From Shigella phage SP18, in sequence record GQ981382: a stretch of 64,000 nucleotides of DNA, one strand, 5' to 3'. The notes beneath the pieces were generated by a model. That model ran no database searches and had not been told where the DNA came from. It saw nothing but the letters and a program-made list of their open reading frames with translations. Positions 6,064 through 50,196 of this stretch are shown here, one piece after another. Numbering within the stretch: position 1 is the first letter of the stretch; each line of letters opens with the position of its first letter. The position numbers were made by a program, and so were the translations under genes.

Positions 6064-6150
6064 GCTAAAACCAAAAAGCGGTAACAGCAACAAGGGCAGT
6101 AACATTTCTAATTAATTCGCAACGTTTCATTTTATTCTCCTCAGTAGTTG

Positions 6151-6187
6151 ATGGGATAATCATACTACAGTTATCCCATCACGTACA
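6151..6187 (-). promoter_or_regulatory. early promoter variant: -35 TGTACG, 17 bp, -10 TATGAT inside inverted repeat GATGGGATAA/TTATCCCATC
   Basis: Near-duplicate of element at 6484-6521. Confidence 0.45.
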
Positions 6188-6466: not shown

Positions 6467-6483
6467 TAGTAGCTCCAGTAGTT

Positions 6484-6521
6484 GATGGGATAATTATACT
6501 GCAACTATCCCATCACGTACA
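6484..6521 (-). promoter_or_regulatory. early promoter variant: -35 TGTACG, 17 bp, -10 TATAAT inside inverted repeat GATGGGATA/TATCCCATC, upstream of IP gene 6188-6466
   Basis: -10 within hairpin loop; followed by GGAG RBS. Confidence 0.5.
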
Positions 6522-9456: not shown

Positions 9457-9467
9457 AGTGCACCTTG

Positions 9468-9506
9468 TTTGCTTTAAAACAATCAGTGTTATAATGGTTC
9501 TAGACC
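9468..9506 (+). promoter_or_regulatory. MotA-box middle promoter (TTTGCTTTA-N13-TATAAT) with conserved start region GGTTCTAGACC, oriented antisense to genes 2 and 4
   Basis: TGCTT to TATAAT spacing 20 nt; identical -10/+1 block to copies at 44487 and 50159. Confidence 0.55.
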
Positions 9507-9541
9507 TTTTGTCCTTACCAATAACACTGACCGATAATAGA

Positions 9542-33585: not shown

Positions 33586-35565
33586 ATGGCTTTATTATCC
33601 CCGGGCATTGAGCTCAAAGAAACAACGGTCCAAAGCACTGTTGTTCGTAACGCGACGGGTCGTGCGGCGCTGGTTGGTAAATTCCAGTGGGGCCCAGCTT
33701 TCCAGGTAACTCAGATTACAAACGAAGTAGAACTTGTTGATTTGTTTGGTGGCCCGAACAATATCACGGCTGACTACTTTATGAGTGGAATGAACTTCCT
33801 TCAATATGGTAATGACCTGCGTACTGTTCGTGTAGTTAACCGCGACCACGCTAAAAACGCATCCCCGGTAGCAGGGAACATTGAAAGTACAATCGCTACT
33901 GCTGGTTCTAACTATGCAGTCGGTGACGCTATCCAGGTTAAATACAACCAGACTGTTGTTGAAACTTCTGGCCGTATCACCAAGGTTGACGTTGACGGGA
34001 AAATCCTCGCGGTCTTCATTCCGTCTGACAAAATTATTTCCTTTGCAAAATCTGTAAACCAGTATCCCGCTTTAGGCTCGGCTTGGACTGCTGAAATCCT
34101 GACCACTTCTTCAGGTGTGTCTGGCACGATTACCCTCGGGAAAATTGTTACCGATTCTGGTATCCTGTTGACCGAAGCAGAAAATAGTGAAGAAGCTATT
34201 ACCTCTCTGGAATTCCAGGCTTCCCTGCAGAAATATGCAATGCCGGGTGTTGTTGCTCTTTATCCTGGTGAAATCGGTTCGACTCTCGAAGTTGAAATCG
34301 TTTCCAAAGCTGCTTATGATGCTGGCTCTTCAAAGATGCTTGACATCTATCCGAATGGCGGTTCCCGTGCTTCTGTAGCTCGTGCAGTGTTTAACTATGG
34401 CCCACAGTCTGACGACCAGTATGCAATCATCGTTCGCCGTGATGGTGATATCGTTGAAAACGTCGTTCTGTCAACTAAAGAAGGCGATAAAGACGTTTAC
34501 GGCAACAACATTTATCTGGATGACTACTTTGCAAAAGGTACTTCCAATTACATCTATGCAACTTCTCTGAACTGGCCAAAAGGTTTTGCAGGCATCATCA
34601 ATCTGATGGGCGGTATTTCTGCAAACGACCAGGTGACCGCTGGTGATTTGATGCAAGGTTGGGACCTGTTTGCTGACCGTGAAGCACTGCATATTAACCT
34701 GCTTATTGCTGGTGCTTGTGCTGGTGAAGGTGATGCGACTGCTTCCACTGTTCAGAAGCACGTAGTTTCTATCGCTGACGAACGTCAGGATTGCTTGGCA
34801 TTTATCTCTCCACCGAAAGGTCTGTTGGTTAACGTTCCCCTGACCCGCGCAGTGGATAACCTGATTGACTGGCGTACAGGTAGTGGTGCATTTGATACTG
34901 ATAACATGAATATCAGCACGACTTATGCAGCGATTGATGGCAACTATAAATATCAGTATGATAAATATAACGACGTTAACCGTTGGGTTCCTCTGGCAGC
35001 TGATATGGCTGGTCTGTGTGCTCGTACTGATGATGTTTCTCAGCCTTGGATGTCTCCGGCCGGCTATAACCGTGGTCAGATTCTGAACGTTCTGAAATTG
35101 GCAATCGAACCACGTCAGACTCAACGTGACCGCATGTATCAGGAAGCTATCAACCCGGTTGTTGGTTTCGCAGGTGGCGATGGTTTTGTTCTGTACGGTG
35201 ATAAGACTGCAACTAAAGTTCCATCTCCGATGGACCATATCAACGTTCGCCGTCTTACGAATATGCTGAAGAAAAATATCGGTGACGCATCCAAATATAA
35301 ACTGTTTGAGCTTAACGATAACTTCACTCGTGCATCATTCCGTATGGAAACTTCTCAATACTTGGATGGTATTCGTGCGCTCGGTGGCATTTATGAAGGT
35401 CGTGTAGTTTGTGATACTACTAACAACACCCCAGCGGTCATAGACCGCAATGAGTTCGTTGCTAGCATTTATTATAAGCCTGCGCGCAGCATCAACTATA
35501 TACAGCTTAATTTCGTAGCCACTAGCACTGGTGCTGATTTTGATGAGTTGATTGGGCCACAATAA
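33586..35565 (+). CDS. 18: gp18 tail sheath protein
   Basis: 659 aa as in T4; late promoter TATAAATA at 33549-33556. Confidence 0.9.
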   Translation: MALLSPGIELKETTVQSTVVRNATGRAALVGKFQWGPAFQVTQITNEVELVDLFGGPNNITADYFMSGMNFLQYGNDLRTVRVVNRDHAKNASPVAGNIESTIATAGSNYAVGDAIQVKYNQTVVETSGRITKVDVDGKILAVFIPSDKIISFAKSVNQYPALGSAWTAEILTTSSGVSGTITLGKIVTDSGILLTEAENSEEAITSLEFQASLQKYAMPGVVALYPGEIGSTLEVEIVSKAAYDAGSSKMLDIYPNGGSRASVARAVFNYGPQSDDQYAIIVRRDGDIVENVVLSTKEGDKDVYGNNIYLDDYFAKGTSNYIYATSLNWPKGFAGIINLMGGISANDQVTAGDLMQGWDLFADREALHINLLIAGACAGEGDATASTVQKHVVSIADERQDCLAFISPPKGLLVNVPLTRAVDNLIDWRTGSGAFDTDNMNISTTYAAIDGNYKYQYDKYNDVNRWVPLAADMAGLCARTDDVSQPWMSPAGYNRGQILNVLKLAIEPRQTQRDRMYQEAINPVVGFAGGDGFVLYGDKTATKVPSPMDHINVRRLTNMLKKNIGDASKYKLFELNDNFTRASFRMETSQYLDGIRALGGIYEGRVVCDTTNNTPAVIDRNEFVASIYYKPARSINYIQLNFVATSTGADFDELIGPQ

Positions 35566-35601
35566 TTATCATCGCTTAGAAAGAATTAATTAGCAGCAAA
35601 A

Positions 35602-35652
35602 CCGTAGAACCATTATACAGTGCTATAAATAAAAGCATAATCGGTTCTACGG
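35602..35652 (-). promoter_or_regulatory. MotA-box middle promoter (ATGCTTTTA-N12-TATAAT-GGTTCTACGG) on minus strand between genes 18 and 19; -10 lies between 10-bp inverted repeats CCGTAGAACC/GGTTCTACGG
   Basis: Fourth copy of the conserved promoter block; inverted repeat at 35602-35611 and 35643-35652. Confidence 0.5.
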
Positions 35653-35710
35653 GCTCCTGTGGTTGATTCTGGGAAGCCATTATCTTGAGATGATGAATCA
35701 TATTACCTAG

Positions 35711-35718
35711 TATAAATA
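35711..35718 (+). promoter_or_regulatory. late promoter TATAAATA upstream of gene 19 (second copy at 35624-35631)
   Basis: Exact consensus motifs in the 205-nt gp18-gp19 spacer. Confidence 0.55.
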
Positions 35719-35770
35719 CATGCATCAGGGACGCGTTCGCGCGACCTGTGTCTATAAAGAGGATTCCTTA

Positions 35771-36262
35771 ATGGAACTTACCGATATCACCAGAGCCTTC
35801 GAGTCAGGGGACTTTGCTCGCCCTAACTTGTTCGAAGTCGAAATCCCATTCCTGGGTAAAAACTTTGCTTTCCATTGTAAAGCAGCCCCGATGCCAGCTG
35901 GCATTGTAGAAAAAGTTCCGGTCGGTTACATGAACCGTAAAATCAACGTAGCGGGTGACCGTACATTTGATGACTGGACTATTACGATTTATAACGACGA
36001 TGCTCATAAAGTTCGTCAAGCAATTGTTGATTGGCAAAATCTGTGTCACGGTATGACTAACGAAATCACCGGTGCAGCTCCTGCTGATTATAAGAAAACT
36101 GCTACTGTCCGCCAGTTCCATCGTGACGGCAAGACCATTACGAAAGAAGTTGTTATTACCGGCATGTGGCCAACCAACGTTGGGGAAGTCCAGATGGATT
36201 GGGACAGTAATAATGAGATTGAGACGTTTGAAACGACGTTCGCAATTGACTGGTGGGAATAA
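35771..36262 (+). CDS. 19: gp19 tail tube protein
   Basis: ATG at 35771 with AAGAGG RBS; ...TRAFESGDFARPNLFEVEI... matches recalled T4 gp19; 163 aa. Confidence 0.9.
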   Translation: MELTDITRAFESGDFARPNLFEVEIPFLGKNFAFHCKAAPMPAGIVEKVPVGYMNRKINVAGDRTFDDWTITIYNDDAHKVRQAIVDWQNLCHGMTNEITGAAPADYKKTATVRQFHRDGKTITKEVVITGMWPTNVGEVQMDWDSNNEIETFETTFAIDWWE

Positions 36263-36263
36263 G

Positions 36264-36271
36264 TATAAATA
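36264..36271 (+). promoter_or_regulatory. late promoter TATAAATA upstream of gene 20
   Basis: Exact consensus immediately after gp19 stop. Confidence 0.65.
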
Positions 36272-36319
36272 AAGTTATTATGAGGCTTCGGCCTCATTTC
36301 CCAAACTTCGGAGACTCTA

Positions 36320-44400: not shown

Positions 44401-44486
44401 ATTCTCTCACTTTTGATGTTATAAATATCATTATAAATTAGACCCACTATACTTTCTTTCTCTGAAAGGAATTAATAGTTGCAAAG

Positions 44487-44525
44487 GGTCTAGAACCATT
44501 ATACCGCATTTTTATTTGAAGCAAA
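44487..44525 (-). promoter_or_regulatory. MotA-box middle promoter (TTTGCTTCA-N13-TATAAT-GGTTCTAGACC) upstream of rnlB
   Basis: Canonical box/-10 spacing; conserved start block. Confidence 0.6.
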
Positions 44526-50158: not shown

Positions 50159-50196
50159 GGTCTAGAACCATTATACAGCCATAAAATTAAAGCATT
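50159..50196 (-). promoter_or_regulatory. MotA-box middle promoter (AATGCTTTA-N12-TATAAT-GGTTCTAGACC) upstream of uvsY
   Basis: T4 uvsY is a classical MotA-dependent middle gene; motif 18 nt upstream of ATG. Confidence 0.65.

What the first reader, a model, noticed from the sequence alone, without database searches (positions are those of the whole stretch)
35602..35652. Middle-promoter copy between genes 18 and 19 points antisense into gene 18 and lies inside a 10-bp inverted repeat that also frames a late promoter
The gp18-gp19 spacer is about 205 nt, long for this compact gene block. It contains CCGTAGAACC ... GGTTCTACGG (35602-35611 / 35643-35652) flanking, on the minus strand, ATGCTTTTA-N12-TATAAT-GGTTCTACGG, and on the plus strand a TATAAATA late motif (35624-35631). 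Overlapping divergent middle and late promoters within one hairpin-capable element suggests a regulatory switch or antisense control of sheath gene expression.
Basis: seen in the sequence. Interest (0 to 1): 0.55.

Follow-up and report, generated by a model that had tools for sequence, protein, structure and literature searches.

The report
Backward-facing middle promoter between tail genes
The gap between the tail-sheath and tail-tube genes of this T4-like phage holds a convincing copy of the phage's middle-stage promoter that points backwards into the sheath gene. A forward late promoter overlaps it and an inverted repeat brackets both. It is a new, untested example of known promoter types, not a new kind of switch.

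Summary
The window is a Gaprivervirus, a T4-like phage. The 205-nt gene 18/19 spacer carries TATGCTTTT-N13-TATAAT on the minus strand. A matrix built from 58 identified T4 middle promoters scores it 16.4 bits, above 74% of them, and random windows give 0.13 such sites. Its -10 and start region, TATAATGGTTCTA, recurs exactly at three other MotA-type promoters in the window: upstream of rnlB, upstream of uvsY, and in the gene 2/3 spacer. T4's identified PnrdC.7 promoter has the same 13-mer.

TATAAATA on the plus strand sits inside this promoter's spacer. Among 15 relatives, every loop substitution falls in the six positions outside the three promoter motifs. The element is a conserved island (54/58 identical) between unalignable flanks. 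It occurs only in this genus.

The 10-bp inverted repeat is not rare by chance. It is an inverted duplication of the promoter's -10/+10 segment and is missing in VR26, which keeps the promoter core.

The transcript would be non-coding. In VR7-type relatives it first enters an inserted gene 19.1, so sheath-specific control is unlikely. A hairpin switch is unsupported. Its function is untested: origin-like R-loop, antisense RNA, or a recombining promoter cassette.

The parts
33586..35565 (+). Gene 18 (tail sheath, 659 aa). This is the gene the minus-strand promoter points into.
   Evidence: ORF list. It is 97.6% identical in protein to VR7 gp18 and the same length as T4 gp18.
35602..35611 (.). 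Left arm of the inverted repeat (CCGTAGAACC). On the minus strand it is the initial transcribed sequence GGTTCTACGG of the middle promoter.
   Evidence: It is invariant in 14 of 15 relatives and partly kept in VR26.
35605..35605 (-). Predicted start of the antisense middle transcript (an A, the 7th base after the -10 hexamer).
   Evidence: In 49 of the 58 aligned T4 middle promoters the mapped start is the 7th base after the -10 hexamer. This is an inference, not a measurement.
35612..35617 (-). -10 hexamer TATAAT of the middle promoter.
   Evidence: It is invariant in all 15 genomes, including VR26.
35618..35623 (.). The only six loop positions that belong to none of the three promoter motifs. 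All loop substitutions among relatives fall here.
   Evidence: variation occurs at 35619, 35620 and 35623, and 35623 shows all four bases.
35624..35631 (+). Late-promoter motif TATAAATA (upstream late promoter for gene 19). It lies inside the spacer of the minus-strand middle promoter.
   Evidence: 21 copies in the window against 4.8 expected, strand-matched to the late genes. It is invariant in 15 genomes. T4's own 18/19 spacer also has two TATAAATA motifs.
35631..35639 (-). MotA box TATGCTTTT, 13 nt upstream of the -10 hexamer.
   Evidence: PWM alignment. It is invariant in 15 genomes.
35643..35652 (.). Right arm of the inverted repeat (GGTTCTACGG). Together with 35636-35641 (CATAAT) it forms an inverted duplicate of the -10/+10 segment of the middle promoter.
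   Evidence: It is absent from VR26 through an 11-nt indel, TCGGTTCTACG.
35656..35692 (.). Variable segment that separates the element from the proximal gene 19 control block.
   Evidence: 35% identity to VR7, against 93% for the element and 100% for the next block.
35711..35718 (+). Second, proximal late promoter TATAAATA for gene 19.
   Evidence: It lies in a block that is 78/78 identical to VR7.
35726..35748 (+). Hairpin with a UUCG loop in the gene 19 leader (CAGGGACGCG-TTCG-CGCGACCTG).
   Evidence: Sequence. It is present in both the minimum-energy and centroid folds.
35771..36262 (+). Gene 19 (tail tube, 163 aa).
9468..9502 (+). Sibling promoter 'E2' in the gene 2/gene 3 spacer: TTTGCTTTA-N13-TATAAT-GGTTCTA. 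It is also antisense to its flanking late genes.
   Evidence: 17.6 bits. It is conserved in VR7, T4 and at least three other T4-like lineages.
44491..44525 (-). Sibling promoter upstream of rnlB, with the same TATAATGGTTCTA.
   Evidence: 17.0 bits. VR7 has the same site upstream of its annotated rnlB.
50163..50196 (-). Sibling promoter upstream of uvsY, the position of T4 oriF. It has the same TATAATGGTTCTA.
   Evidence: 19.8 bits, best in the window. VR7 has an identical site upstream of its annotated uvsY. T4 oriF is annotated at this position.

Best explanation
The element at 35600-35655 is a composite control module between two genes, built from known T4-type parts.

(1) Middle promoter. 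On the minus strand it is a MotA/AsiA-dependent middle promoter: box 35639-35631, -10 at 35617-35612, start about 35605. It is one dispersed copy of a promoter cassette family that shares TATAATGGTTCTA. In this genus the same family drives rnlB, uvsY, nrdC.6 and cd.3. The closest paralogue is another antisense copy, in the srd/modA spacer. During the pre-replicative period it should make a non-coding transcript that runs antisense into gene 18. In VR7-type relatives that transcript first enters the inserted gene 19.1.

(2) Late promoter. On the plus strand, TATAAATA lies between the MotA box and the -10 hexamer. The two promoters therefore cannot be occupied together. They are used in succession as the phage changes RNA polymerase from sigma70+AsiA+MotA to gp55/gp33/gp45. 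That ordinary temporal programme is the 'switch'.

(3) Inverted repeat. It is an inverted duplication of the promoter's -10/+10 segment. Only late transcripts that read through from gene 18 carry both arms. In those transcripts it should fold as an intercistronic hairpin, like the hairpins that precede late promoters in T4's own 18/19 spacer.

What is shown: the motifs, their copies, their conservation and the absence of coding potential. What is inferred: promoter activity, the start site and any role of the RNA. My preferred role is a pre-replicative antisense transcript of the kind made by T4's ori(34) promoter. It may be kept partly because the repeated cassette recombines.
For: - Promoter strength. 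The PWM score is 16.4 bits, above 74% of 58 identified T4 middle promoters, and random windows give 0.13 such sites.
- Shared 13-mer. The exact 13-mer TATAATGGTTCTA is shared with three other MotA-type promoters in the window and with seven sites at up to 1 mismatch in the whole VR7 genome. The experimentally identified T4 PnrdC.7 carries it too (PMC2988021 Table 1).
- Required factors. The genus encodes motA and asiA.
- Conservation. The -10 hexamer, MotA box and TATAAATA are invariant in 15 genomes. All loop substitutions fall in the six free positions, which by my arithmetic has about a 0.004 chance, C(6,3)/C(31,3). The element is 54/58 identical to VR7 while its flanks are 41% and 35% identical. 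VR26 keeps only the 36-nt core between unrelated flanks.
- Non-coding transcript. T4 gene 18 has no antisense ORF of 70 aa or more. The window's 255-aa antisense ORF is broken in VR7. The small spacer ORF is disrupted by a 2-nt indel and an unalignable stretch.
- Precedents for the orientation. The T4 oriG primer RNA runs opposite to gene 34. The antisense E2 promoter is conserved in T4 and several genera.
- Hairpin. The 10-bp stem plus extensions is present in the minimum-energy and centroid folds of the plus-strand RNA, with z = -4.2 for the spacer. T4's spacer has hairpins directly before each late promoter, and VR26 has a separate hairpin after gene 18.
Against: - There are no transcript data for this phage or genus, so activity is inferred from sequence alone.
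- The MotA box departs from consensus at its last base, and there is no extended -10 (TGn).
- Some conservation could come from the overlapping late promoter, or from gene conversion among cassette copies, rather than from selection on the antisense promoter.
- The comparison rests on only three allele types: no insert, VR7-type and VR26.
- The arms never vary, so the hairpin has no covariation support. The one variable inner-stem position breaks its pair.
- No conserved terminator or downstream structure defines a discrete RNA.
- The element is confined to one genus, so it is dispensable for T4-like phages in general.
Confidence: 0.6

Rival explanations
1. Origin-type element. The antisense middle promoter makes a primer RNA that forms a persistent R-loop just downstream and starts leading-strand DNA synthesis, as at T4 oriF (uvsY) and oriG (gene 34). 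This would be an extra origin specific to the genus.
For: - The minimal T4 oriF and oriG are a MotA-dependent middle promoter plus an A+T-rich unwinding element (PMC3016281).
- The oriG primer RNA is antisense to late gene 34.
- The promoter here shares its -10/+10 sequence with the uvsY (oriF-position) promoter of the same genome.
- The first 50 nt downstream are 66-68% A+T in the window and in VR7, even though the two downstream sequences are unrelated. R-loop formation is reported not to need a specific sequence.
- Most early T4 synthesis starts in late-gene regions.
Against: - The shared -10/+10 signature also occurs at non-origin promoters (rnlB, nrdC.6/PnrdC.7, cd.3), so it does not mark origins.
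- Helix instability downstream is unremarkable (23rd percentile in the window). The same measure fails to flag T4 oriG, so the test is uninformative.
- The site is inside a one-directional late block, not at a transcription-strand switch where oriE, oriF and oriG lie.
- T4 has no promoter or annotated origin here.
Confidence: 0.2
2. The hairpin or cruciform formed by the inverted repeat toggles between the divergent middle and late promoters, and the antisense RNA controls sheath (gene 18) expression.
For: The two promoters physically overlap inside the repeat. The whole element, both arms included, is a conserved island. The plus-strand RNA fold contains the stem.
Against: - VR26 keeps both promoter motifs without the right arm.
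- Sibling promoters work without such a frame.
- Neither promoter's own transcript includes both arms.
- A 10-bp repeat with a 31-nt loop is expected by chance about 5 times per window, and cruciform extrusion with so large a loop is unfavourable (general knowledge).
- In at least four VR7-type genomes the transcript meets gene 19.1, not gene 18, for its first 600 nt or more.
- Middle and late promoters are already separated in time.
Confidence: 0.1
3. Promoter cassette as a recombination module (PeSL/PmSL-like). The element persists mainly because repeated promoter copies serve as homology patches for exchanging neighbouring DNA. Here that DNA is the gene 19.1 alleles. Any antisense RNA is a by-product.
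For: - The cassette is repeated at least 7 times per genome.
- The closest paralogue aligns from -31 to +18 only.
- The core sits exactly at the junctions of three alternative alleles: no insert, 19.1 to its left (VR7), and a 35%-identical 19.1 to its right (VR26).
- The flanks are unalignable while the core is kept.
- PmSLs built on Mot-box promoters near indels have been described (PMC4122927).
- Third-codon identity of gene 18 against VR7 falls to 0.53-0.65 near the junction, against 0.88 overall.
Against: - The defining PeSL layout is absent: no separate stem-loop just upstream of the promoter and no ribosome site and start codon downstream.
- The site is in the core late cluster, not in a hyperplastic region.
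- The pattern of substitutions fits motif-level selection better than mere homology.
- This reading and an active promoter are not mutually exclusive.
Confidence: 0.3
4. Only the plus-strand late promoter matters. The minus-strand MotA-type match is fortuitous or silent.
For: TATAAATA is invariant and correctly oriented. In VR26 the core is the main late promoter upstream of 19.1 and gene 19. T4 lists no middle promoter in the whole gene 3-24 late block. Some consensus-looking T4 sites are inactive in vivo (PMC2988021).
Against: A late promoter needs only TATAAATA at -13 to -6 (PMC1524935). That does not explain the invariant ATTATA at 35612-17 or the shared 13-mer with validated-type middle promoters. 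The PWM score has a chance expectation of 0.13 per window.
Confidence: 0.1

Closest known systems
T4 P34i, the promoter of ori(34)/oriG
   Same: It is a MotA-box promoter with TATAAT (TTTGCTTCA-N13-TATAATGG...). It is embedded in a late-gene region and fires opposite to the late gene, and its transcript has no coding role.
   Different: P34i lies inside the gene 34 coding sequence, not in a spacer. No late promoter overlaps it and no inverted repeat frames it. Its origin activity is experimentally shown; nothing is shown here.
T4 PuvsY (oriF) and PnrdC.7, and their Gaprivervirus orthologues
   Same: They have the same promoter architecture and the same extended -10/start sequence: TATAATGGTTCTA in PnrdC.7 and in the window's uvsY and rnlB promoters.
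   Different: Those copies sit upstream of genes they express. The copy studied here has no gene downstream for more than 20 kb of antisense late genes.
Antisense promoters in the gene 2/3 spacer ('E2') and in the srd/modA spacer of T4-like phages
   Same: They are MotA-type promoters that point against the neighbouring genes and share the family's -10/start signature. The srd/modA copy is the closest paralogue.
   Different: E2 is conserved across several genera and in T4, whereas the 18/19 copy is genus-specific. Neither E2 nor the srd/modA copy overlaps a late promoter. Neither is in the list of identified T4 middle promoters that I could read, so they too are predictions.
PeSL/PmSL composite promoter-stem-loop cassettes of T4-like phages (Arbiol 2010; Comeau 2014)
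   Same: They are short conserved promoter modules, repeated in the genome, associated with a stem-loop, and found next to insertions, deletions or replacements between close relatives.
   Different: In PeSLs the stem-loop lies just upstream of the promoter and a ribosome site and start codon follow. They lie mostly in hyperplastic early regions. Here the arms bracket the promoter, no gene follows, and the site is in the core late cluster.
Hairpin-plus-late-promoter modules in T4's own 18/19 spacer
   Same: There are two TATAAATA motifs upstream of gene 19, and stable hairpins lie between gene 18 and those promoters.
   Different: In T4 each hairpin is compact (6-bp and 5-bp stems with 5-nt and 9-nt loops) and precedes the promoter. 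Here the arms enclose the promoter with a 31-nt loop, and a middle promoter occupies the other strand.
'Anti-late' RNA of T4 (1970s hybridisation studies; recalled from memory, no paper found in the library)
   Same: It is RNA complementary to late messages, made before late transcription under delayed-early control. An antisense MotA promoter in a late cluster would produce exactly this.
   Different: The sources of anti-late RNA were never mapped to such promoters as far as I know. No link is demonstrated.

Membership tests
MotA/AsiA-dependent (T4-type) middle promoter | A MotA box (a/t)(a/t)(a/t)TGCTTtA centred near -30 | tested here: met
   TATGCTTTT matches 8 of 9 positions; the last base is T. 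The identified T4 promoters P61, P42 and P52 have the same variant.
MotA/AsiA-dependent (T4-type) middle promoter | A spacing of 12 +/- 1 bp between the box and the -10 element | tested here: met
   The spacing is 13 bp. In my alignment 28% of the T4 promoters use 13.
MotA/AsiA-dependent (T4-type) middle promoter | An excellent sigma70 -10 element (TAtaaT) | tested here: met
   TATAAT at 35617-35612, invariant in 15 genomes.
MotA/AsiA-dependent (T4-type) middle promoter | The phage encodes MotA and AsiA | tested here: met
   Both are annotated in the congeneric VR7 genome. The 64-kb window itself does not cover that region.
MotA/AsiA-dependent (T4-type) middle promoter | A MotA-dependent transcript start in vivo or in vitro | not testable with these tools
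   It needs 5'-end mapping or in vitro transcription.
T4 late promoter | TATAAATA at -13 to -6, on the sense strand upstream of a late gene | tested here: met
   35624-35631 on the plus strand, upstream of gene 19. The motif is strongly enriched and strand-matched in the window and is invariant.
T4 R-loop origin (oriF/oriG type) | A MotA-dependent middle promoter within the minimal origin | tested here: met
   By sequence only, as above.
T4 R-loop origin (oriF/oriG type) | [quoted passage not shown] | tested here: inconclusive
   The region from +1 to +50 is 66% A+T and at the 23rd percentile of instability. The same measure puts T4 oriG at the 65th percentile, so it does not discriminate.
T4 R-loop origin (oriF/oriG type) | A persistent R-loop and autonomous replication of a plasmid carrying the element | not testable with these tools
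   Experimental.
PeSL/PmSL cassette | A stem-loop located just upstream of the promoter | tested here: not met
   One arm lies upstream of the MotA box and the other covers the transcription start, so the promoter is inside the loop.
PeSL/PmSL cassette | A Shine-Dalgarno sequence and start codon of a downstream gene at the 3' end | tested here: not met
   No conserved ORF follows on the minus strand.
PeSL/PmSL cassette | Repeated conserved copies that lie next to indels between close relatives | tested here: met
   VR7 has 7 copies. Three alternative alleles are joined at the core.
Intrinsic terminator | A G+C-rich stem, a short loop, and a U run directly after the stem | tested here: not met
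   The loop is 31 nt. There is no U run on the plus strand (GCUCCUG follows) and only UUUU on the minus strand. The consensus scan does not report the repeat itself as a terminator.
Known RNA families (Rfam 15) | A covariance-model match | tested here: not met
   No match at E of 1 or less in 35000-36300 on either strand.

The most novel reading that the evidence does not exclude
The 18/19 element, the conserved gene 2/3 element and the srd/modA element together define an unrecognised class in T4-like phages. These are 'orphan' MotA-dependent promoters that point against their neighbouring genes. Two of the three lie in late-gene clusters and next to homing-endonuclease insertion sites. All share an extended -10/start signature with the oriF (uvsY) promoter. 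They could be additional R-loop replication or recombination start sites, or the long-sought sources of T4 anti-late RNA. T4 itself carries two such sites, at about 76000 and about 11897, that are absent from the list of identified middle promoters.
Probability: 0.2. Interest if true: 0.65.

Novelty: new member of a known kind. Interest (0 to 1): 0.4.

Why it matters
If the promoter is active, Gaprivervirus phages start pre-replicative transcription in the middle of a late structural operon, against the direction of the late genes. The only well-studied T4 precedent for this is the ori(34) replication origin. The element would then mark either an extra origin or recombination start site, or a defined source of antisense RNA against late or homing-endonuclease genes.

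Either outcome bears on open questions listed for T4: which origins use R-loops, and what governs origin choice. The practical points are modest. The element shows how tightly middle and late promoters can be packed on opposite strands. It also flags a recombination-prone junction that explains the alternative gene 19.1 alleles. Finally, it warns annotators that the small ORF called here in some GenBank records is probably spurious.

Tried and rejected
- The strict MotA pattern TGCTTNA-N11-13-TANNNT missed the site. I replaced it with a PWM built from the 58 T4 promoters. The first PWM build drifted out of register and was redone.
- A 14-mer scan of IMG/VR (GTATAATGGTTCTA) returned only random matches and was useless. 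A longer core pattern found only VR20, VR25 and VR26.
- Coding potential was rejected. The 255-aa antisense ORF in gene 18 and the 49-aa spacer ORF are not conserved.
- A discrete small RNA was rejected for lack of evidence. There is no conserved terminator downstream of this promoter or of E2, and no Rfam match.
- The idea that the shared start sequence marks origin promoters was rejected, because non-origin promoters share it.
- The idea that the VR7 srd/modA copy matches T4 oriA was rejected, because oriA is at gene 56.
- The helix-instability test for an unwinding element was uninformative.
- The inverted repeat as the target site of the gene 19.1 endonuclease is unlikely. Genomes that carry VR7-type 19.1 keep the repeat intact. 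This was not tested further.
- Pfam gave no hit for gp19.1. PHROGs places both alleles in phrog_5104 (unknown function), with a weak endonuclease VII hit. The HNH assignment therefore rests on the DH...N...N motif only.
- Literature searches for antisense or anti-late transcription in T4 found nothing usable. The Miller 2003 genome review is not held.
Full report
**Identity of the window.** The region matches Escherichia phages of the genus Gaprivervirus (TH15, UPEC01, VR20, VR25 and others) at 90-95% identity. These are T4-like phages (Straboviridae, Tevenvirinae). The ORF at 33586-35565 is gene 18 (tail sheath, 659 aa). Gene 19 (tail tube, 163 aa) starts at 35771. The spacer is 205 nt.

**The observation.**
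- CCGTAGAACC lies at 35602-35611 and GGTTCTACGG at 35643-35652, perfectly complementary and 31 nt apart.
- The minus strand reads ATGCTTTTA-N12-TATAAT-GGTTCTACGG.
- TATAAATA is at 35624-35631 on the plus strand.
- A second TATAAATA (35711-35718) sits just before a hairpin with a UUCG loop and the gene 19 ribosome site.

**Is the minus-strand motif a promoter or chance?** In the canonical register it is TATGCTTTT, then 13 nt, then TATAAT. The last box base departs from the consensus (a/t)(a/t)(a/t)TGCTTtA (PMC2988021), so a strict pattern search missed it.

I assembled the T4 genome and aligned the 58 identified T4 middle promoters from Table 1 of that review.
- Six of them have T at the last box position, among them P61, P42 and P52.
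- In 49 of the 58 the mapped start is the 7th base after the -10 hexamer. That places the start here at A35605.
- A two-block matrix from these promoters scores the site 16.4 bits. This is 7th best in the window and above 74% of the known T4 promoters. First-order Markov random windows give 0.13 sites per 64 kb at or above that score.

The -10 hexamer plus the next seven bases, TATAATGGTTCTA, occurs exactly four times in the window. Each copy follows a GCTT box at the right distance.
- 9502 (+), in the gene 2/3 spacer.
- 35605 (-), the site under study.
- 44491 (-), upstream of rnlB.
- 50163 (-), upstream of uvsY.

The whole VR7 genome has seven copies at up to one mismatch. They include copies upstream of nrdC.6 and cd.3, and one on the plus strand in the srd/modA spacer. 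The identified T4 promoter PnrdC.7 carries the same 13-mer. VR7 encodes motA and asiA. The label 'middle-promoter copy' is therefore well founded.

**Conservation.** The spacer element is present in all 32 Gaprivervirus records that match. It is absent from the 18/19 spacer of 76 other T4-like gp19 loci and from T4. Three alleles exist.
- Most genomes resemble the window.
- VR7, RZ, DCP80 and TH57 have a 606-651-nt gene 19.1 inserted between gene 18 and the element. The element itself is intact, with a loop of 33 nt. DK-13 gives the same partial blast match but was not fetched.
- VR26 has a different 19.1 allele, 35% identical and in the same PHROG family, on the other side of the element. It keeps only a 36-nt core (CCATTATACCGTGTTATAAATAAAAGCATAA) between unrelated flanks, and it lacks the right arm through an 11-nt indel.

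Between the window and VR7 the element is 54/58 identical. The left flank is 41% identical and the following 37 nt are 35% identical. The proximal gene 19 control block is 78/78 identical.

Among 15 distinct genomes every substitution inside the loop falls at 35619, 35620 or 35623. These lie in the only six positions that belong to neither the -10 hexamer, nor TATAAATA, nor the MotA box. By my arithmetic the chance of that is about 0.004. A late promoter requires only TATAAATA at -13 to -6 (PMC1524935). The invariant ATTATA at 35612-17 is therefore best explained by the minus-strand -10 element.

**The inverted repeat.** Perfect 10-bp inverted repeats with loops up to 60 nt occur 6 times in the window, against 4.9 expected. 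The chance for one 205-nt spacer is about 0.015. The repeat is not significant on its own.

It is, however, longer than reported. CCGTAGAACC-ATTAT pairs with ATAAT-C-GGTTCTACGG. The right side is thus an inverted duplicate of the promoter's -10/+10 segment.
- The plus-strand RNA fold contains this stem in both the minimum-energy and centroid structures, with z = -4.2 for the spacer.
- The arms never vary, so covariation cannot be assessed.
- The inner stem predicted in the loop is not maintained. Position 35623, predicted to pair with G35635, takes all four bases.
- Neither promoter's own transcript would include both arms. Only late read-through from gene 18 would.
- T4's 18/19 spacer has a compact hairpin directly before each of its two late promoters. 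VR26 has a separate hairpin after gene 18.

I therefore read the repeat as this clade's version of the intercistronic late-mRNA hairpin, not as a promoter switch. It does not meet terminator criteria, and nothing in Rfam matches.

**What the antisense transcript could be.** It is non-coding.
- T4 gene 18 has no antisense ORF of 70 aa or more. The window's 255-aa antisense ORF is split in VR7.
- The 49-aa spacer ORF, annotated as hypothetical in some records, is broken by the 2-nt indel and the unalignable segment.
- No conserved terminator follows.
- In VR7-type genomes the transcript first crosses gene 19.1. A role tied to the gene 18 sequence therefore cannot be the conserved one.

Precedents exist for antisense MotA promoters in late regions.
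- The T4 oriG primer RNA runs opposite to gene 34, and P34i is a standard MotA promoter.
- The minimal oriF and oriG are a middle promoter plus an A+T-rich unwinding element, and R-loop formation is not sequence-specific (PMC3016281).

My helix-stability test could not discriminate, because T4 oriG itself is unremarkable by it. The shared start-region signature also occurs at non-origin promoters. The origin reading therefore stays a minority possibility.

**A wider pattern.**
- The gene 2/3 spacer promoter ('E2') is likewise antisense to its late neighbours. It is conserved in VR7, in T4 (ATGCTTTA-N12-TATAATGGGTCTAAGTCCC, start about 76000 on the plus strand) and in at least three further T4-like lineages.
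- T4 also has GGTATAATGAATCTAAGTCC on the plus strand of the srd/modA spacer, identical over 20 nt to PuvsY. VR7 has the equivalent site.
- Neither T4 site is in the list of identified middle promoters.
- The closest paralogue of the 18/19 element is the srd/modA copy. The alignment covers -31 to +18 only, as expected for a copied promoter cassette.
- In VR7 both late-cluster elements lie just 3' of an inserted gene: a MobB-like HNH endonuclease gene at gene 2/3 and gene 19.1 at 18/19.
- Third-codon identity of gene 18 falls from 0.88 overall to 0.53-0.65 in the last 30-60 codons next to the insert. That is what co-conversion with a mobile gene would give.

This resembles the PeSL/PmSL idea of conserved promoter modules at exchange points (PMC4122927). 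The defining layout of those cassettes is not met here.

**Verdict.** The element holds a strong, conserved, genus-specific copy of a MotA-type middle promoter that faces backwards, and a forward late promoter physically overlaps it. Mutual exclusion follows from that overlap and from the normal T4 temporal programme. The hairpin-switch and sheath-control ideas lack support.

The function of the antisense RNA is open. In my ranking:
- a pre-replicative non-coding antisense transcript of the oriG/'anti-late' kind, about 0.6 for the promoter being real and non-coding;
- persistence aided by cassette recombination, about 0.3 and not exclusive of the first;
- a true origin, about 0.2;
- a silent motif, about 0.1.

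It is a new member of known kinds. It is of moderate interest, and mainly as part of a possibly unrecognised class of antisense middle promoters.

Noticed in passing
window 9457-9541: The spacer between late genes 2 and 3 (both on the minus strand) carries a consensus MotA-type promoter on the plus strand: TTTGCTTTA-N13-TATAAT, start about 9502, 17.6 bits. It is antisense to its neighbours and is associated with its own perfect 10-bp inverted repeat (9483-92 / 9521-30). It is conserved in VR7, T4 and at least three other T4-like lineages.
   Followed up: partly
L145 about 1469-1501 (T4 75968-76000, + strand) and L144 11866-11897 (T4, + strand): T4 itself has two plus-strand MotA-type promoter motifs that share 18-20 nt of -10/start sequence with PuvsY (oriF). 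One is in the gene 2/3 spacer and one is in the srd/modA spacer, pointing antisense into modA. Neither is in the list of 58 identified T4 middle promoters.
   Followed up: partly
L003 190-795; L007 359-1042; loci L148, L150, L154, L155, L169, L178, L180: The 18/19 spacer is a recurrent insertion site for a gp19.1-family ORF (phrog_5104, with a DH...N...N motif that suggests an HNH-type endonuclease). Several genera have spacers of 645-893 nt. Two alleles that are 35% identical sit on opposite sides of the promoter core in VR7 and VR26.
   Followed up: partly
window 35386-35565 versus VR7 gene 18: Third-codon-position identity of gene 18 between the window and VR7 drops from 0.88 overall to 0.65 in the last 60 codons and 0.53 in the last 30, next to the 19.1 insert. 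This is as expected for co-conversion with a mobile gene.
   Followed up: no
L140 21548-22204 (VR7 71548-72204): VR7 has a MobB-like HNH endonuclease gene inserted between gene 2 and the E2 promoter. In VR7 both late-cluster antisense promoters therefore fire into the 3' end of an inserted gene, one of which has a Pfam HNH hit.
   Followed up: no
window 35693-35770: The proximal gene 19 control block is 78/78 identical to VR7, although the 37 nt before it are only 35% identical. The block comprises the late promoter, a hairpin with a UUCG loop at 35726-35748, and the ribosome site.
   Followed up: no
window 35576-35725 (- strand): A 44-49-aa ORF across the spacer is annotated as a hypothetical protein in UPEC07 and pEC-M719-6WT.2, and probably also in Yersinia phage P8. 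It is not conserved in VR7-type genomes because of a 2-nt indel and an unalignable stretch, so it is probably spurious. Several records also label gp19 'tail fibers protein'.
   Followed up: yes
window 34471-35238 (- strand): A 255-aa ORF lies antisense inside gene 18. It is split in VR7 and absent in T4, so it is not a gene.
   Followed up: yes
window 6149-6181 and 6483-6515: The same inverted repeat, TGATGGGATA...TATCCCATCA with a 13-nt loop, occurs twice about 334 nt apart.
   Followed up: no
window 44420-44451: Just outside the rnlB start there is a plus-strand TATAAATA (44420-27) that points against the following minus-strand genes. A partial second copy of the promoter's -10/start motif, TATAGTGGGTCTA, lies at 44451-44439 on the minus strand, about 50 nt downstream of the rnlB promoter start.
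   Followed up: no
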